This document shows, one piece after another, positions 1,503 through 11,712 of a stretch of DNA of 64,000 bases. The stretch lies in the NCBI GenBank assembly GCA_903864935.1, contig CAIPHT010000005.1, positions 9,867 through 73,866 of the forward strand. Direction: 5' to 3'. Numbering within the stretch: position 1 is the first letter of the stretch; each line of letters begins with the position of its first letter. Source of the stretch: Candidatus Vogelbacteria bacterium (lineage in GTDB: Bacteria; Patescibacteriota; Minisyncoccia; Phycocordibacterales; XYD1-FULL-46-19). The notes under the pieces were generated by a model. That model made no database searches, was not told where the DNA came from, and saw only the letters and a program-made list of their open reading frames with translations. A program made the position numbers and the translations under genes.

Positions 1503-1602
1503 GGGCCGAATTAAGTCTTGGCGAAGCAGGGGATTATGTGCTAAGATATTCTTGCTGAAACAGGTTGAAAAACGCTTTTTCAGATTCAAGTTCAATTTCT
1601 AA

Positions 1603-1712: not shown

Positions 1713-1767
1713 TTTGTGTCGCGAGATTCGAACTGAAGAGGGGGTCGGGGAGAGGGTAGGGTTTCTC

Positions 1768-1796
1768 TTGACTTCTAAACCAATATTTGCTATAAT
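1768..1796 (+). promoter_or_regulatory. sigma70-type promoter TTGACT-N17-(tgc)TATAAT upstream of the DEAD-box helicase leader
   Basis: TTGACT at 1768-1773, 17-nt spacer ending in TGC (extended -10), TATAAT at 1791-1796. About 180 nt of leader with a stem-loop (1851-1884) precedes the ATG at 1978. Confidence 0.55.
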
Positions 1797-1977: not shown

Positions 1978-3252
1978 ATGTATAACTTTAATAACAATAA
2001 GCGTTTTGGTGCTAAGAAACCCCTCTCAAGCAGGGGAGCTCCTTCGCGTCTCGGCTCTCGCGTGATGGGCCGTTCTTCGAGTGCCTCACGACCTTCTCGT
2101 TTCTCTAGTTCCTCGCGCCCTACTTTTAAGAAAAAGATGCGTGGTGAGTATATTGATATCGCCCGCTTCGTTAAGAAAGCGGTGGTTGGTGTTGTCTCCG
2201 AACCGGTAGTCATCGAGCACGTTTTTGCCGACTTCGGCTTCACTCCTCAATTGCAGAAGAATCTTGAAACAAGAAATTATCTTAATCCGACCCCGATTCA
2301 GGATCAGTCTATTAAGCATACTATGGCCGGCAAGGATATGATTGGTCTCGCTAATACTGGTACCGGTAAGACCGCGGCCTTTCTTCTCCCGATGATTAAC
2401 AAATGTTTCCTTGATAAGCAACAGGGTGTCTTGATTGTGGCTCCAACTCGTGAGCTCGCCATCCAGATTGACGATGAATTTAAGAAATTTACCGGTGGTT
2501 TAGGCCTCTTCTCAGCAGTATGCGTTGGTGGTGCACCTATCTATAGACAAATTGCTGACCTTCGTCGTAATCCAAACTTCGTTATTGGTACCCCAGGGCG
2601 CCTTAAGGATCTTAAGGATAGGGGAGTGATCCACTTTGCTGATTATCAAAATATCGTCTTGGATGAGATCGACCGCATGCTCGACATGGGCTTCGTGGAG
2701 GAAATTCGTCGTATCTTGGCGGAGATGCCTAAAGAGCGACAATCCCTCTTCTTCTCCGCTACCCTGCCTCCTAAGATTAGAGAATTATCCCAAGCCTTCT
2801 TGACCGACCCCGTGGTTGTCAAAGTGACAACGGGCGAGACTTCGGAGAATGTTGATCAAGATATTGTTAAGCATAATAAAGAAAATAAATTTGAGAAATT
2901 GCGTGACTTGCTCGGGACTAAGGCTCTTGGCAAAGTCCTTATCTTCTCCGAGACCAAGAGGGAGGTGGATCGCTTGGCGGTGAGCCTCTCTAAAGAAGGC
3001 TTTAAGGCTGACTCTATCCATGGTGATAAGCATCAGAGCCAGCGTGAGAAAGCTCTTCGTCGCTTCAAAGAAGATCATGTGAATATCCTTGTGGCGACTG
3101 ATGTTGCCGCTCGTGGCCTAGATATCAAGAACATCACTCACGTGATCAACTATTCCTTACCTCAAACTTATACTGATTATGTCCACCGCATTGGCCGTAC
3201 TGGTCGTGGTGACACTAAGGGCTGTGCCTTGACCTTTGTTGAGGTGAATTAA
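1978..3252 (+). CDS. DEAD-box ATP-dependent RNA helicase
   Basis: Q-motif (TPIQ), motif I AxTGTGKT, motif II DEID, SAT, and HRIGRTGR motif VI. Arg/Ser-rich N-terminal tail. Confidence 0.9.
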   Translation: MYNFNNNKRFGAKKPLSSRGAPSRLGSRVMGRSSSASRPSRFSSSSRPTFKKKMRGEYIDIARFVKKAVVGVVSEPVVIEHVFADFGFTPQLQKNLETRNYLNPTPIQDQSIKHTMAGKDMIGLANTGTGKTAAFLLPMINKCFLDKQQGVLIVAPTRELAIQIDDEFKKFTGGLGLFSAVCVGGAPIYRQIADLRRNPNFVIGTPGRLKDLKDRGVIHFADYQNIVLDEIDRMLDMGFVEEIRRILAEMPKERQSLFFSATLPPKIRELSQAFLTDPVVVKVTTGETSENVDQDIVKHNKENKFEKLRDLLGTKALGKVLIFSETKREVDRLAVSLSKEGFKADSIHGDKHQSQREKALRRFKEDHVNILVATDVAARGLDIKNITHVINYSLPQTYTDYVHRIGRTGRGDTKGCALTFVEVN

Positions 3253-3273: not shown

Positions 3274-3978
3274 GTGCCTCAGGAAGGTAAGCCATTTTTA
3301 AGCGATAATATTCATCTTGCTAATTTTGCCGAGGGTAAGGGCGATTTTGTTACCGTTAAGGAATTAAAGAATAAAATTGCTGATCCAAGTTTGGGTGGTG
3401 AAGGGAAGTTTGTTTTAAAAGAATATAATAAGGATCCTGTTAGCGACCTTTTTGCCCAGAAAAATCTTACGTTAGAAAAAATGGCCTCTTTATTAAAAAG
3501 ACGGCAAGAATTTACCCGGGCTTACTATAAGGAACTTCCTGAGTTGGTCGTGGAAAGCCAGTTTTTGATTGCTGAAGGAGAAAATGGTCAACCGACAATC
3601 TATGAATTTCAGGAGAAATTAAATAATTTCCACGAAACTAGTTCCGAGGGGATTGATAATATTGTAAAAAGTTTGGATCACGAGCAAAAAGAGGTTTTGA
3701 TAAAAGAGCTTAGGTATTTTGTAGAGAGGACAAACGATTTTATTGAACAAAAGAATTTGCCTGAAGGTTTTGAAGAATACGAATCTTTTTTTCCTGATCT
3801 CGGTGAACAAAATTTAGTTGTCACCGCTGATGGTCATTTAAGGGTTATTGATACTAACATGTACCATAATCTTTGGGAACAGGACGGTACTTTTGAATCA
3901 AGCGAGCAACTTCTTTTTGGTTTGCGCATGATGACAAGGGAATTGGTTTTATCTATCAAAAAATCCCAAAAAGACTAG
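3274..3978 (+). CDS. hypothetical protein (GTG start), co-directional with the helicase
   Basis: Long ORF 20 nt after the helicase stop. No motif recognised; a ...TADGHLRVIDTN... segment is vaguely kinase-like. Confidence 0.45.
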   Translation: MPQEGKPFLSDNIHLANFAEGKGDFVTVKELKNKIADPSLGGEGKFVLKEYNKDPVSDLFAQKNLTLEKMASLLKRRQEFTRAYYKELPELVVESQFLIAEGENGQPTIYEFQEKLNNFHETSSEGIDNIVKSLDHEQKEVLIKELRYFVERTNDFIEQKNLPEGFEEYESFFPDLGEQNLVVTADGHLRVIDTNMYHNLWEQDGTFESSEQLLFGLRMMTRELVLSIKKSQKD

Positions 3979-4008
3979 ACGTTTTTGTCCCCGGTCTTTT
4001 TTTATGTC

Positions 4009-4045: not shown

Positions 4046-4294
4046 ATGACGACTCTAAATATAAGGATTGAGGAGAAAGCTAAAGCTGATGCCAATAAGA
4101 CCCTGGCTCGTCTTGGCCTTGATATGTCGAGTGCCGTGAAGCTTTTTCTCTATCAAGTGGTAAAGGAGGATGGCTTACCTTTCTTGCCGACCAACAATCT
4201 CTCTACTATCAAAGCGCGTTTTGATGCCCAGGTGTCTGAGGCAAAGAAAAGCCGTGGGTTTAAAACTGCTAAACAAGCTCTTAAGGGACTATAG
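4046..4294 (+). CDS. dinJ: type II antitoxin, DinJ/RelB family
   Basis: MTTLNIRIEEKAKADANKTLARLGLDMSSAVKLFLYQVV is a ribbon-helix-helix antitoxin signature. It is immediately followed by a YafQ-like ORF. Confidence 0.75.
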   Translation: MTTLNIRIEEKAKADANKTLARLGLDMSSAVKLFLYQVVKEDGLPFLPTNNLSTIKARFDAQVSEAKKSRGFKTAKQALKGL

Positions 4295-4300
4295 TTAATT

Positions 4301-4588
4301 ATGACTTTTCTCATTAAACGAACTAAGGATTTTGAGAAGTCTTTCAAAAAAATTAGCCGTTCTGGTTTGAATTTAAAAACAAGAGAGAAATTAGAATTTA
4401 TTATTGATGCTATTGCTTGCGAGAGAAGATTAGACATAAAGTAAAAGAATCATAGATTAAAAGGGGAATTAAAAGATTACTACGAATGTCATGTTGTCCC
4501 AGATCTTTTGCTTATTTACAAAATAGAAGAGGAAGTAAATTTCTTGATTTTGGTGGATATAGGAAGCCATAATCAATTGTTTGGGTAG
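4301..4588 (+). pseudogene. yafQ: YafQ/RelE-family toxin gene interrupted by an in-frame TAA (4442-4444)
   Basis: N part MTFLIKRTKDFEKSFKKISRSGLNLKTREKLEFIIDAIACERRLDIK, then a stop, then in the same frame KNHRLKGELKDYYECHVVPDLLLIYKIEEEVNFLILVDIGSHNQLFG. Together these match the YafQ consensus (...GxxKGxRECHIxPDxLLIYK...). The catalytic C-terminal half lies after the stop. Confidence 0.65.
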
Positions 4589-4635
4589 CCTTTTGTCCCA
4601 GGTCTTTTTTTGTGTTAAGTTGTATTTGTTAATTT

Positions 4636-4825
4636 CGGAGTGTAGTGTAACGGTAACATCCACGACGCGCCCCCACACCTTTTTAACGGGGCATAGTGTA
4701 ACGGTAACATCCACGATTCGGGTTCGTGGGACTCTGGGTTCGAGTCCCAGTGCCCCGACAGGAACGTAAAAAAGGTGTGGGGGTGAAGGTTCGTGGGACT
4801 CAGGGTTCGAATCCCTGCACTCCGA
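4636..4825 (+). tRNA. tRNA-Pro-like gene whose anticodon loop holds a 125-nt insertion (4666-4790) containing a complete tRNA-Pro(CGG)
   Basis: 5' part CGGAGTG-TA-GTGTAACGGTAACATC-CCACGA (4636-4665) and 3' part TCGTGG-GACT-CAGGGTTCGAATCCCTG-CACTCCG-A (4791-4825). Acceptor is perfectly complementary and the D-arm is identical to the nested tRNA. The insert has 10-bp perfect inverted repeats CCCCCACACC (4670-4679) and GGTGTGGGGG (4774-4783). Uncertain whether functional, spliced or a pseudo-tRNA. Confidence 0.5.
4687..4758 (+). tRNA. tRNA-Pro(CGG), nested inside the outer tRNA-Pro-like gene
   Basis: Acceptor CGGGGCA/TGCCCCG, anticodon stem CCACGA/TCGTGG, loop TTCGGGT (anticodon CGG), T-arm CTGGG-TTCGAGT-CCCAG, discriminator A. 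Confidence 0.8.
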
Positions 4826-4840
4826 CAAAGCGAAGCATTT

Positions 4841-5016
4841 GGCGGAGTGAGCGAGCCAACTGCTTGGCTTGCGTCTGGGATTCGAACAGCGGAGTGATAT
4901 TTTTTCAGCAGAAAAAATTAGCGAGCTGGTGCCTAGACAAAGTTTTGCGACGGCAAAACTTTAGTCGAAGGAGAATCCCTGCACCGTAGTAGTGATATTT
5001 CCTGCACTCCGACAAA
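4841..5016 (+). repeat. tRNA-flank mimic element copy B (~175 nt), immediately 3' of the outer tRNA-Pro-like gene
   Basis: Homologous to the minus-strand segment 9201-9354. It starts with a GGCGGAGTG acceptor-like 5' end and contains three hairpins: GCGAGCCAA-ctgc-TTGGCTTGC; TTTTTTC-agca-GAAAAAA; AAAGTTTTG-cgacggc-CAAAACTTT. It ends with GAATCCCTGCAC...TCCGACAAA, a direct repeat of the tRNA 3' end plus 4 nt of flank. Confidence 0.5.
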
Positions 5017-5091
5017 TTTCTTTACTTTTTCTCTCTTGTCGTTGATAATTGGGTGGGTTTTTGGGTCTCTATCAACAACAGGAGTTTTCTT

Positions 5092-5541
5092 ATGAATAAC
5101 ACGTCCGTTGCTATTGCGAGCGTTCAGCTTCAACGCTGGGCAACCATCCGTCTCAACCATTGCCGGTTGGAGACGGAATGGAGAGCGAGGTTTCGTTTTT
5201 CTCCCACAAGGAGAAACCTCTCTGCCCTTCCTTCGCTTACCCTTGGGGAGTATGTTATCGGTCTTGATCTCGAGGGAGGGAATTTTGACATCAGTTCAAG
5301 ACTCCCTCTTGAAGATTTTTCTCACGGGGTGGCAATCTATCTCTCGTCTCCTGATTGGGGAGAGGGCGAGGTGGATTCTGGGGCTGGGGTCTCGGGACGT
5401 TTCTTCCAAAGGTTCTATTCTTCTGAGGAAGAGAACCAGGGGCTCTCGGTCGGGGTGTTCCTTGATTTTCCTTCCCGACGAATTTGCCACTTTTTCTTCC
5501 GAGGAGAAAATGGGGGGATGGTGAGAAAAACTTTCAAGTAG
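5092..5541 (+). CDS. hypothetical protein (149 aa), or alternatively part of a structured non-coding region
   Basis: ATG with AGGAG 7 nt upstream, and a terminator right after the stop. However, three overlapping ORFs of similar length occur in different frames and strands here, and the region is rich in hairpins. Confidence 0.3.
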   Translation: MNNTSVAIASVQLQRWATIRLNHCRLETEWRARFRFSPTRRNLSALPSLTLGEYVIGLDLEGGNFDISSRLPLEDFSHGVAIYLSSPDWGEGEVDSGAGVSGRFFQRFYSSEEENQGLSVGVFLDFPSRRICHFFFRGENGGMVRKTFK

Positions 5542-5555
5542 GGTTAAGCCCCGTC

Positions 5556-5595
5556 GGCACATTGCGTGCTGGCGGGGCTTTCTTTTTCTAAACTG
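5556..5595. terminator. bidirectional intrinsic terminator (AAGCCCCGTCGGCAC...GTGCTGGCGGGGCTT + T-tract)
   Basis: Long GC stem flanked by A/T tracts on both sides, lying between convergent genes. Confidence 0.6.
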
Positions 5596-5599
5596 TTTT

Positions 5600-5926
5600 T
5601 TACTCTCTTAGAACGAGAGTCTCTTGATATTCCAAGAAGTGTTTCCAACACTCCTCAGCCGATGGTTCGTATCCGAGCTTTAGTCCGGCGTAGTAGCGGT
5701 TGAGTTCCTCTTGGCCTTGTTCGTAGGCGACCCTGAACATGGCGGCGTAACCCATGCTGATGTACCAGAAGACAACTTCGTTGTTCGTCAGTTTTCTGTC
5801 TCCCATCTCTTCGGCGAGTTTGCGATAGCGCATGGCGTCAACGTATTGGGTAATGTCCCGCTCTACCCTTTTCATTCGCTCTTCTTCGGTGAGCTCAGGA
5901 ACACCTTCGACATTTGGGTCTATCAT
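5600..5926 (-). CDS. hypothetical protein (108 aa), GC-richer than its neighbours
   Basis: RBS AAGGAG 7 nt upstream of the ATG at 5926, clean ORF, terminator downstream. No recognisable domain. Confidence 0.5.
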   Translation of the reverse strand: MIDPNVEGVPELTEEERMKRVERDITQYVDAMRYRKLAEEMGDRKLTNNEVVFWYISMGYAAMFRVAYEQGQEELNRYYAGLKLGYEPSAEECWKHFLEYQETLVLRE

Positions 5927-6066
5927 TTCGGCACTCCTTTCTTGGTTATGACTGATGAGACCAAAAATCTGCCCTTAGTCTAACACCAACCTTTAATTTA
6001 ACAAGCATCAAAAAACTCACCATCAATTGGCGAGTTTTTTGATTTACGAAAATTAATATCTTCTAA

Positions 6067-6321
6067 TTATTTCTTGCCCCACTTCTTCTTGTAAGCATAG
6101 AAGTAGTAGAGGATGTCCAAGATGCCCAAGGTGTTAACCAAGAGAAGCACCACGAACCAAACCTTAGCGCCACTACGAGCAGCGCGCCACATGGCCAAAC
6201 CTTTCCAAAGAAGGTTCCAGGCAATGAGGACAATTAATAAAGTGGTTAGACCAGCGGTGCTGGCGATAACCGTACCCCATGTTGATGGAGGTAACGTACC
6301 CAATTTATAAATGCTTTCCAT
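6067..6321 (-). CDS. small membrane protein with a PLDc_N-like motif (cardiolipin synthase N-terminal-like)
   Basis: Two TM helices and the motif KVWFVVLLLVNTLGILDILYYFYAYKKK, matching the PLD-nuclease N-terminal small-protein family (W..vllL....G...Y...). Confidence 0.55.
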   Translation of the reverse strand: MESIYKLGTLPPSTWGTVIASTAGLTTLLIVLIAWNLLWKGLAMWRAARSGAKVWFVVLLLVNTLGILDILYYFYAYKKKWGKK

Positions 6322-6386
6322 GTTTTGAATTATACCATATGGTTCAGAAATTTGACGAGACTTTTATCCACATCTATCATTAACTC

Positions 6387-7259
6387 ATGTTAACGCAAAT
6401 CCAAAAAGAATTAAGAAAAGTGGCCGACAAAGACAAGGCAAAAATTTTGGCGCGGTTTTTCAAAACTGGGAAAGGCGAGTATGGTGAGGGTGATAAATTC
6501 TTAGGGGTGGTGGTGCCGGAGCAAAGACGGATTGCAAAAGAATATTTGCGAGACGAGAACGTTGTGAGAAGTCGTTTTTCAAGTGAGCCCGAAATGCGAC
6601 TTCGCACAATGTTCGCTGACCTTCAAAATCTTTTGCGAAGCGAGTATCACGAAGACAGGTTAACCGCCCTTTTGGTTTTAGTGGAGCTGTATCGACTTAC
6701 TCAAAAAAATGACCCTACTTCGCCGAGGCTTCGCAGGGTTAATTCGCGCAAGATTTTTTTGTTTTACATAAAAAATCTTGCGCGAACTTGCCCCGTGAGA
6801 GCGAAGCGATTTTACGGGGTTAACAATTGGGACTTAGTAGATTTAAGTGCCCCTAATATTGTCGGCGATTATCTGTTTACCCTGAGTGAAGTCGAAGGGT
6901 TGAATAATTTTTCTAAAATTCAAATAAAAACATTTTTGCTTAAATTAGCTAAGTCAAAAAATCTTTGGTCGCGTCGGGTGGCGGTGCTTGCCACCTTCCC
7001 CTTTATCAAAAATAAAAAGTTCGAAGAAATTTTAGAGTTGACCAAGTTCTTACTTTTCGAACAAAAAGAAAATCATGACCTAATGCACAAGGCTCTTGGT
7101 TGGGCGCTCCGCGAAGTGGGGAAGAGGGAGTTGGGAGTTTTGAGGAACTTCCTTGATCACTATGCGGGAGTCTTGCCTCGGACCACTCTTCGTTACTCAA
7201 TTGAGAGATTGCCTCAAAAGGAGAGGCTCGAGTATCTAGCTAGGCCCAAAATCGCTTGA
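6387..7259 (+). CDS. DNA alkylation repair protein (AlkD-like HEAT-repeat glycosylase family) carrying in-frame palindromic inserts
   Basis: N-terminus MLTQIQKELRKVADKDKAKILARFFKTGKGEYGEGDKFLGVVVPEQRRIAKEY and later ...NNWDLVD..., ...LWSRRVAVLA... are typical of the DNA_alkylation repair family. Extra segments VRSRFSSEPEMRLRT and DPTSPRLRRVNSRK.../...ARTCPVRAKRFYGV coincide with DNA palindromes. Confidence 0.7.
   Translation: MLTQIQKELRKVADKDKAKILARFFKTGKGEYGEGDKFLGVVVPEQRRIAKEYLRDENVVRSRFSSEPEMRLRTMFADLQNLLRSEYHEDRLTALLVLVELYRLTQKNDPTSPRLRRVNSRKIFLFYIKNLARTCPVRAKRFYGVNNWDLVDLSAPNIVGDYLFTLSEVEGLNNFSKIQIKTFLLKLAKSKNLWSRRVAVLATFPFIKNKKFEEILELTKFLLFEQKENHDLMHKALGWALREVGKRELGVLRNFLDHYAGVLPRTTLRYSIERLPQKERLEYLARPKIA
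6564..6607. repeat. 44-nt palindromic element GTGAGAAGTCGTTTTTCAAGTGAGCCCGAAATGCGACTTCGCAC inserted in-frame in the AlkD-like CDS
   Basis: Nucleotide-identical to 45454-45497 inside comEC. Imperfect hairpin (11-bp outer stem plus inner TTTC/GAAA). Encodes VRSRFSSEPEMRLRT in both hosts. Confidence 0.8.
6716..6820. repeat. composite nested palindrome inside the AlkD-like CDS (17-bp perfect stem TTCGCGCAAGATTTTTT/AAAAAATCTTGCGCGAA plus outer CTTCGC..GCGAAG arms)
   Basis: Read directly from the sequence. It stays in-frame (...NDPTSPRLRRVNSRKIFLFYIKNLARTCPVRAKRFYGV...). Confidence 0.6.
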
Positions 7260-7338
7260 GATATAAGGGTTACACGGTTATGGTCGTTCTGCGTCACAAC
7301 TTCTTGGCGAAGATTATTAAAAGAGTATAATTATCTAT

Positions 7339-8241
7339 ATGAAAAAATTAATTAATCTTAAGAAACTTCTTCGACAATCTCGAGCGGTTTATCGAGCGAA
7401 GTTTCCTGTTCTCTTTGGGCTCCTTGTTTTGCCCTTCACCCTCTTTATTATTAGTCCGCTCTTGGTTCAAAGTTTTGATTTTCTTTATCTGCCACTCTCG
7501 CTCTTGCTCACAATCCTGGGCCTCTTCTTGTTGCTCTGGGGTGGGACAGCGGCCATTATTGTTATTCGCGACCGTGATGAGAATCTCTCAATCAGAGAAG
7601 CACTTGAGCGAAGTAAGGGAAAAATTTGGCCCCTTCTCTGGGTCTCAATTATTGTTGGCTTCATTGTTGTCGGGGCTTCAATTTTATTTTTAATCCCTGG
7701 TTTAATTTTGGCCGTCTATTTTATCTTTGCCAAAATTATTGTCGTGGCTGAAGATGAGACTGGTCTCGTCGCTTTGGCCAAGAGCCGTGAATATGTTCGA
7801 GATTATTTCTGGCCAGTTCTTGGACGTTACTTGGTGATTGTTATTCTTACTACAATTGTTGTTGCTATTTTTGCTGGCATTATCTCAGCCCTCAGCCAAG
7901 CCCTTATCTCTGTCTGGGGGCGAGCGGTGAGCGAGGCATTAGTGATTATCTTGCAAGCCTTAGTAAATGCAATTATTTTTCCTTTTGTTTTGTCGGCAAC
8001 TTATTTGCTTTATGAGAATGTGAGAGAAGTTAAGGGTGAGGTGTCTGTTGAAGAAAAAAATAATCAAGCGTGGATTTATCTTGGCGTGGGTTTGGCCGGT
8101 TGGATTTTCTTAGCGGTCTTAATTGTTTTGGCGATTGTCATTCTCACGACCGCTATTGGTGGTTATGTTCTTGGTGCCTTTGCTTCGAATATTTTTAATA
8201 GCCAAGCGTTAATTAAAGCGACGAGTACTCTCGCACAATAA
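7339..8241 (+). CDS. polytopic membrane protein, hypothetical
   Basis: About 6 hydrophobic helices; no catalytic motif recognised. Confidence 0.5.
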   Translation: MKKLINLKKLLRQSRAVYRAKFPVLFGLLVLPFTLFIISPLLVQSFDFLYLPLSLLLTILGLFLLLWGGTAAIIVIRDRDENLSIREALERSKGKIWPLLWVSIIVGFIVVGASILFLIPGLILAVYFIFAKIIVVAEDETGLVALAKSREYVRDYFWPVLGRYLVIVILTTIVVAIFAGIISALSQALISVWGRAVSEALVIILQALVNAIIFPFVLSATYLLYENVREVKGEVSVEEKNNQAWIYLGVGLAGWIFLAVLIVLAIVILTTAIGGYVLGAFASNIFNSQALIKATSTLAQ

Positions 8242-9200: not shown

Positions 9201-9354
9201 TGCGAGGGATGGGAGAAAACCGTCGCCCGCGACTCAAGTCTCGCCGTCGCTCAACTTGGTCTGGGCACCAGCTCGCTAGTTTTTGTTGGTACAAAAACAT
9301 CGCTCCGCTGTTCGACTCTCCACGCAAGCCAAGCAGTTGGCTTGCTCATCCCGC
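9201..9354 (-). repeat. tRNA-flank mimic element copy A, immediately 3' of tRNA-Gly(TCC)
   Basis: Read on the minus strand: GCGGGAT (the tRNA-Gly acceptor 5' strand), then hairpin GCAAGCCAA-ctgc-TTGGCTTGC, then GTGGAGAGTCGAAC (antisense to the tRNA-Gly T-arm), then AGCGGAGCGAT, then hairpin GTTTTTGT-acca-ACAAAAAC, then TAGCGAGCTGGTGCCCAGAC, then a hairpin with loop CGACGGC, ending CTCCCATCCCTCGCA (a near-copy of the tRNA-Gly 3' end). Core is homologous to 4841-4975. Confidence 0.5.
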
Positions 9355-9380: not shown

Positions 9381-9386
9381 TTTCTG

Positions 9387-9457
9387 TGCGGGATGGGAGA
9401 GTCGAACTCCCGACCTCAGTTTGGAAAACTGATATTTTACCGCTAAACTAATCCCGC
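9387..9457 (-). tRNA. tRNA-Gly(TCC)
   Basis: Minus strand: GCGGGAT-TA-GTTTAGCGGTAAAAT-A-TCAGT-TTTCCAA-ACTGA-GGTC-GGGAG-TTCGACT-CTCCC-ATCCCGC-A; anticodon TCC. Confidence 0.8.
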
Positions 9458-10971: not shown

Positions 10972-11712
10972 ATGGAAAATAAACTCCTAAATACCCTTAC
11001 AAACATTGGATTATCTGATAAAGAAGCTCGGGTCTATATGGCGACAATGGCTCTAGGGCCTAGTAAAGTCCAAGCTATCGCTAAGGCTGCCGAGGTAAAA
11101 AGGACGACCGTTTATGTTATTTTGGAGGCGCTTAAGTCTAAGGGGTTAATAAGGGTGGAGCTTTCGGGTTGGAAGACTCTGTATGTGGCTGAGAGCCCAG
11201 ACAAATTGGAGTCTCTGGTAGAGCAAATGCGCCATCAGGTTAAGAAGACTCTGCCAGAATTTTCTGCCTTATATAATCTCCACTCCAGCGGCGCTTTTAT
11301 CAGTTATTACGAAGGACTTGAGGCGGTGAAGAACGTCTATGAGGGACTGCTTCGCGATATCAAGCCCCATGAGGACTATCTAGTTATTGGTGATTTGAAT
11401 CAGTGGCTAGAACAAGATAGGGACTTTTTTCTCGATTTTACCAAGCGTAGGGCTAAATTGGATATAAATATCAGAATCTTAATGCAAGAATCGCCTCTAG
11501 CTCATGAGCACAAAAGGTTGGAGAGAAATTTTAATGAAATTGTTAAGATTATGCCTCCAGAGTATAAACTGACAACTAATATGGTCATTATTCCGCATCG
11601 AGTCGTAATAAATCAGCTAACCCCACCCCTCCTTGCAATGGTCATAGAAAATGACAACATTGTCAAAATGAATAGGGAGTTATTCGAAATGATCTGGAAG
11701 TCAATTCCTTAA
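10972..11712 (+). CDS. TrmB-family HTH transcriptional regulator (paralog 2)
   Basis: LGLSDKEARVYMATMALGPSKVQAIAKAAEVKRTTVYVILEALKSKGLI, with the same architecture as 759-1502. Confidence 0.72.
   Translation: MENKLLNTLTNIGLSDKEARVYMATMALGPSKVQAIAKAAEVKRTTVYVILEALKSKGLIRVELSGWKTLYVAESPDKLESLVEQMRHQVKKTLPEFSALYNLHSSGAFISYYEGLEAVKNVYEGLLRDIKPHEDYLVIGDLNQWLEQDRDFFLDFTKRRAKLDINIRILMQESPLAHEHKRLERNFNEIVKIMPPEYKLTTNMVIIPHRVVINQLTPPLLAMVIENDNIVKMNRELFEMIWKSIP

What the first reader, a model, noticed from the sequence alone, without database searches (positions are those of the whole stretch)
4636..4825. A complete tRNA-Pro(CGG) sits inside the anticodon loop of a second tRNA-Pro-like gene, bounded by 10-bp inverted repeats
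The outer gene has a perfect acceptor stem (CGGAGTG/CACTCCG) and D-arm, anticodon-stem and T-arm sequences that are paralogous to the inner tRNA. Its anticodon stem halves (CCACGA at 4660-4665 and TCGTGG at 4791-4796) are separated by 125 nt. That insert consists of CGCG, then CCCCCACACC, then TTTTTAA, then the full 72-nt tRNA-Pro(CGG) at 4687-4758, then CAGGAACGTAAAAAA, then GGTGTGGGGG, then TGAAGGT. The two decamers are perfect reverse complements. They could be terminal inverted repeats of a tiny tRNA-carrying insertion, or the base helix of an intron-like structure. Removing exactly the segment between the stems leaves no anticodon loop. Nothing here resembles the catalytic core of a typical bacterial group I tRNA intron. 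The internal-loop geometry (4 nt against 7 nt) also does not match an archaeal bulge-helix-bulge motif. Three readings remain: (a) a tRNA-Pro(GGG)-type gene disabled by a tRNA-carrying micro-insertion; (b) a novel intron-like or permuted arrangement processed by RNase P and RNase Z, which would release the inner tRNA and two half-molecules; (c) an assembly or recombination artefact. Any of these is unusual for a bacterium.
Basis: seen in the sequence. Interest (0 to 1): 0.82.

Follow-up and report, generated by a model that had tools for sequence, protein, structure and literature searches.

The report
tRNA gene split by tRNA-carrying cassette
A normal proline tRNA gene of an uncultivated Patescibacteria (CPR) bacterium has been cut in its anticodon loop by a 114-bp inverted-repeat cassette that carries its own complete, foreign copy of the same tRNA, so the outer gene is dead and the inner one most likely does the work.

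Summary
A complete tRNA-Pro(CGG) (4687-4758) lies between the two halves of a second tRNA-Pro gene (4636-4665 and 4791-4825) and is flanked by a 10-bp perfect inverted repeat, which extends to 19 nt with one mismatch.

It is not an intron and not an assembly artefact. Close relatives (helicase 96-97% identical) carry the outer gene intact at the same locus, with loop TTCGGGT. It is therefore a CGG gene, not a GGG gene. In the window, TTCG is replaced by CGCG + cassette + TGAA.

The decamers CCCCCACACC/GGTGTGGGGG are the termini of a family of small cassettes found in metagenomes. These usually have 3-4-nt direct repeats on both flanks and often sit in tandem. Their roughly 300-bp members encode an 85-aa GIY-YIG nuclease. 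The window cassette carries a tRNA instead.

The inner tRNA differs from the outer by four compensated base pairs plus one T-loop base, so it is a diverged, probably foreign, functional copy. Two independent assemblies reproduce the arrangement exactly.

Unexplained: the unequal flanks (CGCG/TGAA), and why the cargo matches the gene it interrupts.

Separately, a roughly 190-nt structured non-coding element with no match in Rfam or the papers searched is inserted at the 3' end of the same tRNA gene. It recurs behind many tRNA genes in Patescibacteria.

The parts
4636..4665 (+). Outer (resident) tRNA-Pro(CGG) 5' part, tRNA positions 1-31: acceptor 5' strand, D arm and 5' strand of the anticodon stem.
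   Evidence: Identical to the intact tRNA-Pro(CGG) of L033 at 11190-11219. The upstream flank 4591-4635 is also orthologous, 94.7% identical over 4591-4665.
4666..4669 (+). Left junction CGCG. It occupies the place of loop positions 32-35, which read TTCG in the orthologues.
   Evidence: Comparison with L033 and L031. The origin of the TT-to-CG difference is unexplained.
4670..4688 (+). Left terminal inverted repeat of the cassette: conserved decamer CCCCCACACC at 4670-4679, plus a family-variable extension TTTTTAACG. The last 2 nt of the extension are the first 2 nt of the inner tRNA.
   Evidence: repeat I12. The same decamer ends units in L053, L056, L063, L064, L081, L087, L113, L114, L118, L122, L125, L131, L161 and others.
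4687..4758 (+). Inner tRNA-Pro(CGG), complete (72 nt including discriminator A). It is the cassette's cargo and the presumed working gene.
   Evidence: ARAGORN and Rfam at 57.9 bits. Read against the outer sequence, it differs at 9 nt: four compensated pairs (4:69, 6:67, 7:66, 50:64) plus T-loop position 59. Positions 8-48 are identical.
4759..4773 (+). 3' trailer of the inner tRNA, CAGGAACGTAAAAAA. Its last 9 nt belong to the extended inverted repeat.
4774..4783 (+). Right terminal decamer GGTGTGGGGG.
4784..4787 (+). TGAA, the right flank tetranucleotide. It is absent from the intact tRNA, and it is the same 4-mer that flanks family members in L087, L114 and L081.
4788..4825 (+). Outer tRNA-Pro(CGG) 3' part, positions 36-73: GGT of the loop, 3' strand of the anticodon stem, variable loop, T arm, acceptor 3' strand and discriminator A.
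   Evidence: 100% identical to L033 11224-11265 over 4788-4829.
4826..5012 (+). A second, independent insertion at the same tRNA gene: a non-coding 'type 1' tRNA-3'-end element.
- 4826-4842: short spacer containing GCGAAGC.
- 4843-4849: copy of the acceptor 5' strand.
- 4851-4872: hairpin.
- 4875-4887: reverse complement of the T arm.
- 4888-4974: conserved structured core.
- 4973-5012: repeat of the tRNA 3' end, itself interrupted by 16 nt (4985-5000) flanked by a CCTGCAC duplication.
   Evidence: The element is absent from L033, whose tRNA trailer CAAATTTCT is found in the window at 5013-5021, after the element's right repeat.
9201..9354 (-). Paralogous type 1 tRNA-3'-end element behind tRNA-Gly(TCC) (9386-9457, minus strand). 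Its acceptor and T-stem segments match tRNA-Gly.
   Evidence: (repeats I1, I2)

Best explanation
The outer gene is the resident, single-copy tRNA-Pro(CGG) of this Patescibacteria (Paceibacterota-like) genome. A 114-bp cassette bounded by inverted repeats, followed by TGAA, has been inserted into its anticodon loop between positions 35 and 36. The four loop bases to its left now read CGCG instead of TTCG.

The cassette belongs to a family of small units with termini CCCCCACACC ... GGTGTGGGGG and a further 5-9 bp of unit-specific inverted repeat. Elsewhere these units carry either an 85-aa GIY-YIG nuclease gene or a short non-coding cargo. They are usually flanked by identical 3-4-nt repeats. 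They occur at unrelated genomic sites, can replace one another at a fixed site, and pile up in tandem. In the window the cargo is a complete tRNA-Pro(CGG) from a different lineage.

Consequences (inferred):
- The outer gene is a pseudogene, because no anticodon loop can be formed.
- The cassette leaves only 21 nt between the outer 5' half and the inner gene, which is too little for a promoter of its own. The inner tRNA is therefore probably transcribed through the outer 5' half.
- It is then released by RNase P at its 5' end and by a 3' nuclease plus CCA addition at its 3' end. The 15-17-bp leader-trailer helix may first be opened or cut.
- The two outer halves are by-products.

Shown: the insertion relative to intact orthologues; membership of the termini in the cassette family; mobility of that family; structure-preserving divergence of the inner tRNA.

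Inferred: the enzyme that moves the cassette (a GIY-YIG nuclease acting in trans), the processing pathway, and the reason the cargo matches the target.
For: 1. Intact orthologues. L033, L034 and L035 (helicase 96% identical) and L031 (97%) have a plain tRNA-Pro(CGG) next to the helicase gene. It is identical to the window's two outer halves, apart from one T-loop base in L031, and has loop TTCGGGT.

2. Orthologous flanks. Window 4591-4665 and 4788-4829 align to L033 at 94.7% and 100%.

3. Cassette family. From the metagenome scan, about 32 low-to-mid-GC units have the same decamer termini. About 22 of them have identical 4-nt flanks and several more share 3 nt. Eight encode an approximately 85-aa protein. 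Two of these proteins were scanned against Pfam and match GIY-YIG at E = 7e-18. The closest solved structures are UPF0213 proteins.

4. Mobility of the family.
- The same two-unit composite sits in non-homologous flanks in L087 and L114.
- The same site holds a 308-bp GIY-YIG unit in L056 but a 65-bp unit in L054 and L089.
- The order of units in the array differs between L064 and L161.

5. The window unit looks like a true member. Its subterminal inverted repeat matches 7 of 8, and its right flank TGAA is the flank seen in L087, L114 and L081.

6. The inner tRNA is well formed. All its stem differences from the outer gene are compensated.

7. The outer gene is not recognised as a tRNA, with or without intron search.

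8. Reproducibility. L037 (ERZ18660404) and L038 (ERZ27313544, contig name k141_...) are 100% identical to the window over 4093-8000.
Against: - The flanks CGCG and TGAA are not a direct repeat, and neither equals the target TTCG. The event therefore does not look like the family's typical insertion. Family units L081 and L131 also have unequal flanks.
- Only one tRNA-carrying unit was found. No other unit among 29 arrays sits in a tRNA gene, and no other of 85 tRNAs has such flanks.
- No GIY-YIG gene lies in the 64-kb window.
- That the cargo is the same isoacceptor as the interrupted gene is far too unlikely for random insertion and is not explained.
- The outer halves carry no substitutions, although neighbouring non-coding DNA is 5-14% diverged. 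This fits a recent event but would also fit selective constraint.
- No expression data are available.
Confidence: 0.72

Rival explanations
1. Local rearrangement without a mobile cassette. The two decamers with their T and A runs would be the halves of one ordinary bidirectional terminator, AAAAAAGGTGTGGGGG-TGAA-CCCCCACACCTTTTT. Illegitimate recombination or template switching between two hairpin loops (terminator loop and anticodon loop) in a tandem or merodiploid tRNA-Pro arrangement would have produced the reciprocal junctions.
For: - The flanks are not a target-site duplication.
- Rejoining the decamers through TGAA gives a textbook terminator.
- Both partners are stem-loops.
- The locus is rearrangement-prone. 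The tRNA is inverted in L031. ORF234, a RelB/YafQ module flanked by 25-nt repeats, and the 3'-end element are all inserted here.
Against: - Relatives have a single tRNA-Pro(CGG) here and no such terminator.
- The inner tRNA differs by four compensated base pairs, so it is not a recent local duplicate.
- The same decamers bound mobile units, with the same TGAA flank, in unrelated metagenomes.
Confidence: 0.13
2. Functional intron-like or split tRNA. After RNase P and RNase Z release the inner tRNA, the outer halves would stay paired through the 15-17-bp helix. They would then be ligated or act as a two-piece tRNA-like RNA.
For: - The whole region folds as predicted (z = -5.1).
- The outer halves have zero substitutions relative to the orthologues.
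Against: - There is no anticodon loop after any simple splice. The best case is CGCGGGT with G33.
- There is no bulge-helix-bulge motif, no group I or II core and no Rfam match.
- Orthologues are uninterrupted.
- The arrangement is confined to one population.
- The inner gene already supplies the same anticodon.
Confidence: 0.04
3. Assembly or strain-mixing artefact that joins two tRNA-Pro alleles.
For: - The sequence is metagenome-derived.
- The two tRNAs share an identical 41-nt core.
- Some assemblies break at 4826 (L039) or at 4093-4101 (L036-L038).
Against: - Two assemblies from different submissions are identical through both junctions.
- The junctions lie inside the shared 41-nt core, not at its edges, and involve sequence (the decamers) absent from either allele.
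- By my own knowledge of MEGAHIT naming, a k141_ contig implies 141-mers. A 141-mer spans both junctions, which lie 122-125 nt apart. This is an inference.
Confidence: 0.03

Closest known systems
Non-autonomous inverted-repeat elements (MITEs) and their autonomous insertion-sequence partners
   Same: - Short terminal inverted repeats and short flanking direct repeats in most copies.
- Size classes with and without a protein gene.
- Presence/absence and tandem polymorphism.
   Different: - The protein in the long members is only an 85-aa GIY-YIG (UPF0213-type) nuclease domain. As far as I know this is not a recognised bacterial transposase class.
- The cargo between the conserved decamers is unrelated from unit to unit.
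- The window copy lacks a target-site duplication and carries a tRNA.
Integrative elements that target tRNA genes and carry a replacement 3' segment (tyrosine-integrase islands and phages; anticodon-loop, T-loop and 3'-end sublocations, Williams 2002, from my own knowledge)
   Same: The element interrupts a tRNA gene yet keeps the cell supplied with that tRNA by bringing replacement sequence. The anticodon loop is a known target sublocation.
   Different: - There is no integrase and no att-type direct repeat of tRNA sequence.
- A whole second tRNA gene is supplied, rather than a matching 3' part.
- The resident gene is not reconstituted.
Free-standing GIY-YIG homing endonucleases near tRNA genes (phage T4 SegB, from my own knowledge)
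   Same: A GIY-YIG nuclease family is linked to tRNA gene regions. In L033 and L021, homologues of the cassette nuclease sit directly upstream of tRNA genes.
   Different: - The window unit has no nuclease gene.
- Homing endonuclease genes have no terminal inverted repeats or flanking 4-nt repeats.
- No cleavage specificity is known for this family.
Archaeal and algal disrupted tRNA genes (BHB introns, split tRNAs of Nanoarchaeum, permuted tRNAs of Cyanidioschyzon)
   Same: The halves of a tRNA are separated in the DNA and brought together by a long helix formed by the intervening sequence.
   Different: - There is no BHB motif and no restored anticodon loop.
- The host is bacterial and the orthologues are uninterrupted.
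- The intervening sequence is itself a complete tRNA.
REP/REPIN-RAYT and IS200/IS605-derived palindromic elements
   Same: Hairpin-forming repeats in intergenic DNA, tandem mosaics, and a short specific flanking tetranucleotide.
   Different: - The associated protein is GIY-YIG, not a Y1 HUH transposase.
- The conserved decamers face inward around variable cargo.

Membership tests
Bacterial group I intron in a tRNA anticodon loop | Conserved P3-P9 catalytic core and G-binding site, usually more than 200 nt; matches Rfam Intron_gpI. | tested here: not met
   A permissive Rfam scan (E up to 10) of 4500-5150 found only tRNA plus weak chance hits. The insert is 125 nt, of which 72 nt are a tRNA.
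Archaeal-type BHB intron, split or permuted tRNA | Bulge-helix-bulge motif (3-nt bulges separated by 4 bp) at the exon-intron junctions; splicing restores a 7-nt loop. | tested here: not met
   The internal loop is 4 against 7 nt by sequence (2 against 5 in the MFE fold). ARAGORN with intron search finds none. The best splice gives CGCGGGT with G33. Orthologues are intact.
CCCCCACACC/GGTGTGGGGG cassette family (GIY-YIG-associated inverted-repeat units) | Exact terminal decamers in inverted orientation. | tested here: met
   4670-4679 and 4774-4783.
CCCCCACACC/GGTGTGGGGG cassette family (GIY-YIG-associated inverted-repeat units) | Unit-specific extension of the inverted repeat just inside the decamers. 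| tested here: met
   7 of 8 positions are complementary, the same as in the GIY-YIG-carrying members.
CCCCCACACC/GGTGTGGGGG cassette family (GIY-YIG-associated inverted-repeat units) | Identical 3-4-nt flanks on both sides. | tested here: not met
   The window has CGCG against TGAA. About 22 of about 32 family units have identical 4-nt flanks. L081 and L131 are also unequal.
CCCCCACACC/GGTGTGGGGG cassette family (GIY-YIG-associated inverted-repeat units) | Filled site versus empty site in related genomes. | tested here: met
   The empty site is the intact tRNA-Pro(CGG) of L031 and L033-L035. For the family as a whole: L056 against L054, and L087 against L114.
CCCCCACACC/GGTGTGGGGG cassette family (GIY-YIG-associated inverted-repeat units) | A GIY-YIG nuclease gene in the same genome to act in trans. 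| tested here: inconclusive
   There is none in the 64-kb window (tblastn). Homologues exist in Patescibacteria loci L021 and L033. Only a 3' remnant lies upstream of the window's tRNA-Pro(TGG). The rest of the genome was not available.
tRNA-targeting integrative element (tyrosine integrase type) | Integrase gene, plus direct repeats made of the tRNA 3' segment at both ends. | tested here: not met
   The cassette has no ORF (114 bp). No tRNA-derived direct repeat bounds it.
Functional bacterial tRNA-Pro (inner gene) | Cloverleaf above the Rfam threshold; G35, G36, A73 and C1:G72, the ProRS identity set as I know it. | tested here: met
   57.9 bits against a threshold of 29. Anticodon CGG, discriminator A4758 and C4687:G4757 are read directly. 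Expression and charging are not testable here.
tmRNA or permuted tmRNA | tRNA-Ala-like acceptor with G3:U70, a tag reading frame and pseudoknots. | tested here: not met
   Only sub-threshold Rfam hits: 17.2 bits against 84, and 13.5 against 47. They are caused by the layout T arm - acceptor 3' strand - loop - acceptor 5' strand at 4801-4852. ARAGORN finds no tmRNA. Acceptor pair 3:70 is G:C.

The most novel reading that the evidence does not exclude
The cassette would be a selfish 'gene-replacement' element. Guided by its own cargo or by a nuclease specific for the tRNA-Pro anticodon stem-loop, it would insert into the cognate tRNA gene, destroy the host copy and supply its own. The host then could not lose it. 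This would be a third solution, beside self-splicing introns/inteins and att-site reconstitution, to the problem of living inside an essential gene. The GIY-YIG inverted-repeat units would then be a previously unrecognised class of minimal mobile element built around a bare GIY-YIG domain.
Probability: 0.18. Interest if true: 0.8.

Novelty: new variant of a known kind. Interest (0 to 1): 0.62.

Why it matters
If the reading is right, this is a clean natural example of a mobile cassette interrupting a tRNA gene and compensating by carrying a whole replacement gene. That explains how an apparently impossible 'tRNA within a tRNA' can persist.

It also shows that tRNA genes in Patescibacteria are targets for at least three kinds of tiny non-coding or near-minimal elements:
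- the GIY-YIG-associated inverted-repeat cassettes;
- two types of structured elements at the tRNA 3' end.

None of these is in Rfam or in the literature I could search.

There is a practical lesson too. tRNA annotation and tRNA-gene counts in such genomes can miss disrupted resident genes and count foreign replacements.

Tried and rejected
- Intron readings. Group I, BHB, and ARAGORN with intron search were all negative.
- tmRNA or permuted tmRNA. Only sub-threshold hits, explained by the layout of tRNA pieces.
- Search for the donor of the inner tRNA. Its specific 3' end has no match in viral contigs. Among the metagenome loci fetched by the hairpin scan (GGTGTGGGGG-loop-CCCCCACACC), none holds a related tRNA.
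- Viral-contig scan for R...L pairs 60-90 nt apart. It returned G-rich repeats of another kind and no tRNA cargo.
- Test of whether other family units sit in tRNA genes, by joining flanks and running ARAGORN. None does.
- Search for a conserved protein next to the tRNA-3'-end elements. None found.
- Literature searches on the decamer, on GIY-YIG with inverted repeats or MITEs, on UPF0213/YhbQ, on tRNA-like elements in CPR, and on the core sequence of the 3'-end element. Nothing relevant.
- Exact-protein look-up of the antitoxin found nothing.
- Models considered to explain CGCG/TGAA: a 4-bp target duplication, conservative site-specific recombination with a shared overlap, and carry-over of old flanking overhangs (piggyBac-like). 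None reproduces the left CGCG. Only the geometry fits: 4 nt to the left of the cassette and 4 nt to its right, in place of the 4 loop bases 32-35.
Full report
**1. Observation**

- The outer acceptor strands are CGGAGTG (4636-4642) and CACTCCG (4818-4824), followed by discriminator A at 4825.
- The anticodon-stem halves CCACGA (4660-4665) and TCGTGG (4791-4796) are 125 nt apart.
- Between them lie, in order: CGCG, CCCCCACACC, TTTTTAA, a 72-nt tRNA-Pro(CGG) at 4687-4758, CAGGAACGTAAAAAA, GGTGTGGGGG and TGAAGGT.

ARAGORN and Rfam call only the inner gene, at 57.9 bits against a threshold of 29.

It is 19 nt at 95% complementarity, 4670-4688 against 4765-4783, with 15 nt perfect. Among 85 tRNA genes in about 0.95 Mb of fetched DNA, no other has a flanking inverted repeat above 9 nt. 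The region folds into the nested structure with z = -5.1.

**2. The organism and the orthologous locus**

The neighbouring genes are a TrmB-type regulator, a DEAD-box helicase, an alanine racemase and others. The best protein hits place the window in Patescibacteria/Paceibacterota.

The helicase gene (1978-3252) has relatives at 97% (P0001) and 96% (P0002) identity, and I fetched their contigs.
- In L033, L034 and L035 an ordinary tRNA-Pro(CGG) follows the helicase terminator.
- In L031 the same gene is present but inverted.
- This tRNA is identical to the window's two outer halves, apart from one T-loop base in L031. Its anticodon loop is TTCGGGT.
- Window 4591-4665 (upstream flank plus 5' half) aligns to L033 at 94.7%. 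Window 4788-4829 aligns at 100%.

The outer gene is therefore the resident tRNA-Pro(CGG), not a GGG type. Relative to the intact gene, the window has TTCG (positions 32-35) replaced by CGCG, followed by the 114-bp inverted-repeat-bounded unit and TGAA. The gene then resumes at G36.

**3. Not an artefact**

Contigs L037 (ENA ERZ18660404) and L038 (ERZ27313544, MEGAHIT-style name k141_) were found through the exact product of the 108-aa gene at 5600-5926. Both are 100% identical to the window over 4093-8000 and include both junctions.

The junctions lie inside the 41-nt stretch shared by the two tRNAs, and they involve sequence absent from either tRNA. That is not what a repeat-collapse chimera would produce.

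**4. What the inverted repeat is**

I scanned the metagenome collection for the two decamers arranged as an ordinary hairpin. Besides many unrelated high-GC hairpins, this returned a set of low-to-mid-GC contigs in which the decamers occur 'inside-out'. That is, CCCCCACACC ... GGTGTGGGGG bound units of 27-320 bp, often in tandem, in the form x-R...L-x-R...L-x.
- About 22 of about 32 such units have identical 4-nt flanks: TGAA, ATAA, TAAA, TTTA, CAAG, TCAA, TACA or TAGA. Several more share 3 nt (TTA or TAA).
- Each unit continues the inverted repeat for 5-9 bp with its own sequence.
- All eight units of about 300 bp encode an approximately 85-aa protein. Two of them were scanned against Pfam and match GIY-YIG at E = 7e-18. 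The nearest solved structures are uncharacterised UPF0213 proteins.

The units behave as mobile cassettes:
- The same two-unit composite lies in non-homologous flanks in L087 and L114.
- One chromosomal site holds a 308-bp GIY-YIG unit in L056 but a 65-bp unit in L054 and L089.
- The syntenic arrays in L064 and L161 differ in composition.

The window unit has the exact decamers, a 7-of-8 subterminal repeat, and the right flank TGAA seen in L087, L114 and L081. Its cargo is a tRNA instead of the nuclease gene. Homologues of the nuclease occur in Patescibacteria loci L021 and L033, in both cases immediately upstream of a tRNA gene. None is present in the 64-kb window.

**5. The inner tRNA**

Read against the outer sequence, the inner gene differs at nine positions:
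- pairs 4:69, 6:67, 7:66 and 50:64, each changed on both sides so that pairing is kept;
- T-loop position 59.

Positions 8-48 are identical. The inner gene keeps C1:G72, A73, G35 and G36. It is therefore a functional-looking, diverged homologue, most simply of foreign origin, and not a recent local duplicate.

**6. How it most likely works**

Shown: the resident gene is interrupted and cannot form an anticodon loop. No tool calls it. The best artificial splice, CGCG + GGT, gives a loop with G33.

Inferred:
- Only 21 nt (4666-4686), ten of them the GC-rich decamer, separate the outer 5' half from the inner gene. The inner tRNA is therefore probably transcribed from upstream, through the outer 5' half.
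- It is then released by RNase P and a 3' nuclease, followed by CCA addition. A CCA-adding enzyme gene is present in the relatives.
- The 15-17-bp helix formed by the cassette ends would hold the leftover halves together. I see no evidence that they are used.

**7. What remains unexplained**

(i) The flanks CGCG and TGAA are neither a duplication nor the target sequence. TGAA looks like a flank or junction tetranucleotide carried over from a previous location. The change TT to CG at positions 32-33 has no explanation, although the geometry is exact: 4 nt to the left of the cassette and 4 nt to its right, in place of the 4 loop bases 32-35.

(ii) The cargo is the same isoacceptor as the interrupted gene. 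Random insertion into the 7-nt loop of the cognate gene is of the order of 1 in 100,000 for a 1-Mb genome. Compensation alone does not favour that site over the roughly 10% of the genome that is intergenic. Some form of targeting, or spread of an already nested allele by homologous recombination among relatives, is likely. I could not test this. No other family unit sits in a tRNA gene.

(iii) The outer halves have no substitutions. I read this as a recent event.

**8. A second insertion at the same gene**

Directly after the outer tRNA lies a roughly 190-nt non-coding element (4826-5012). L033 lacks it. L033's native tRNA trailer, CAAATTTCT, reappears in the window at 5013-5021, after a second copy of the tRNA 3' end.

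The element's layout is:
- a copy of the acceptor 5' strand;
- a hairpin;
- the reverse complement of the T arm ending in TCGAAC;
- a conserved core, CAGCGGAGC - hairpin - AGCGAGCUGGUGCCYAG - hairpin - AGUCGMRGGAGA;
- a repeat of the tRNA 3' end.

A paralogue follows tRNA-Gly(TCC) at 9201-9354 on the minus strand, with its tRNA-specific segments switched to Gly.

A scan of one genome per species found 28 further loci, all in Patescibacteria (Paceibacterota, Saccharibacteria, Nomurabacteria, Taylorbacteria). Where the upstream sequence was available, nearly all lie directly 3' of a tRNA gene, and many different isotypes are represented.

The core is a well-supported structure:
- 25 predicted pairs, 17 with compensatory double changes;
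- 95.2% of cells paired, against 35-43% when the partners are slid;
- covariation score 0.52, against 0.07-0.17 for slid partners.

The element has no Rfam match, no conserved neighbouring protein and no literature hit.

A second type, with core TCGAAC-AGGAGTGGGGTCGGGAGA..., occupies the tRNA-Gly site in L033, in front of a remnant of type 1. A related stretch follows the window's tRNA-Pro(TGG).

These elements look like miniature site-specific insertions at the T-loop/3' end of tRNA genes. Their mechanism is unknown.

**9. Comparison with known systems**

Functionally, the nested arrangement is closest to integrative elements that interrupt a tRNA gene while supplying replacement sequence. 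Structurally, it is closest to MITE-like non-autonomous elements.

It fails the tests for group I introns, BHB introns or split tRNAs, tmRNA, and integrase-type islands (see the membership table).

It meets four of the six features I could define for the GIY-YIG-associated cassette family. It fails the flanking-repeat feature, and the test for a nuclease gene in the same genome was inconclusive.

**10. Verdict**

Readings (b) and (c) are not.

The arrangement is a rare but explicable product of mobile DNA, so it is less exotic than a new kind of tRNA intron. It remains unusual because the cargo replaces the very gene it destroys. It also exposes two kinds of small element, the GIY-YIG cassettes and the tRNA 3'-end elements, that I found described nowhere in Rfam or the papers searched. 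Interest 0.62.

Noticed in passing
window 4826-5012 (+) and 9201-9354 (-); loci L001-L030 except L005 and L010: A roughly 150-190-nt non-coding element lies directly 3' of tRNA genes of many isotypes in Patescibacteria. Layout: copy of the acceptor 5' strand; hairpin; reverse complement of the T arm; conserved core with strong covariation (17 of 25 pairs compensatory; 95% paired against about 40% for slid controls); repeat of the tRNA 3' end. It is absent from the orthologous tRNA-Pro(CGG) of L033, so it is an insertion. No Rfam family, no neighbouring conserved protein and no literature hit.
   Followed up: partly
L033 17040-17175; window 1722-1790; also L018 and L030: A second type of tRNA-3'-end element, with T-arm complement + TCGAAC followed by AGGAGTGGGGTCGGGAGA.... 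In L033 it sits behind tRNA-Gly(TCC), in front of a truncated type 1 element. This suggests serial insertions at the same tRNA 3' end. A related, degenerate stretch follows tRNA-Pro(TGG) in the window, after a perfect 22-bp hairpin (1672-1721).
   Followed up: partly
metagenome loci L053, L056, L081, L113, L118, L122, L125, L161 (about 300-bp units); L054, L063, L064, L087, L089, L103, L114, L131, L132, L135, L147 (short units): Units bounded by CCCCCACACC...GGTGTGGGGG that encode only an approximately 85-aa GIY-YIG (UPF0213-like) protein, together with protein-less derivatives. They occur in tandem arrays, mostly with identical 3-4-nt flanks. This may be a minimal mobile element built on a bare GIY-YIG domain. 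I found no description of it.
   Followed up: partly
window 1557-1602 compared with L033 7426-7698: L033 has a 90-aa GIY-YIG gene whose stop codon abuts the 5' end of tRNA-Pro(TGG). It is flanked by the direct repeat GGGGTGTA. The window keeps only the last roughly 45 nt of that ORF. L021 likewise has a GIY-YIG gene just upstream of a tRNA gene that also carries a type 1 3'-end element.
   Followed up: partly
window 4046-4590: A RelB-antitoxin/YafQ-toxin module (Pfam). The toxin frame has an in-frame TAA at about 4442-4444 where homologues have Tyr, so it is probably a pseudogene. The module is bracketed by 25-nt direct repeats (3983-4007 and 4591-4615) that are the right half of the helicase-operon terminator. 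It is absent from L031 and L033.
   Followed up: partly
window 3274-3978 and 5017-5590: ORF234 (no Pfam hit) and about 570 bp of unassigned sequence are also absent from the orthologous interval of L031 (155 bp there). L033 has a different 469-aa gene at that position. The helicase-to-tRNA-Pro(CGG) interval is therefore an insertion hot spot. In L031 the tRNA itself is inverted.
   Followed up: partly
window 4985-5000: The right-hand copy of the tRNA 3' end is itself interrupted by 16 nt (CGTAGTAGTGATATTT), flanked by a 7-nt duplication CCTGCAC (4978-4984 and 5001-5007). Other copies of the element carry a different optional module (TAAGYGTAMTCRCGRT) at this position (L007, L013, L017, L029).
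   Followed up: no
L014, L027, L013 (next to or inside type 1 elements): Another small hairpin repeat (GGTCGGGATAGGGACCYGAC...) is inserted in or beside the tRNA-3'-end elements. In L027 it sits inside the first hairpin.
   Followed up: no
window 4826-4842 and loci L003, L018, L029: Copies that lack a terminator-like hairpin between the tRNA and the 3'-end element have instead a spacer containing GCGAAGC. From my own knowledge, this is the sequence of an unusually stable DNA mini-hairpin, and it may hint at a single-stranded DNA stage.
   Followed up: no
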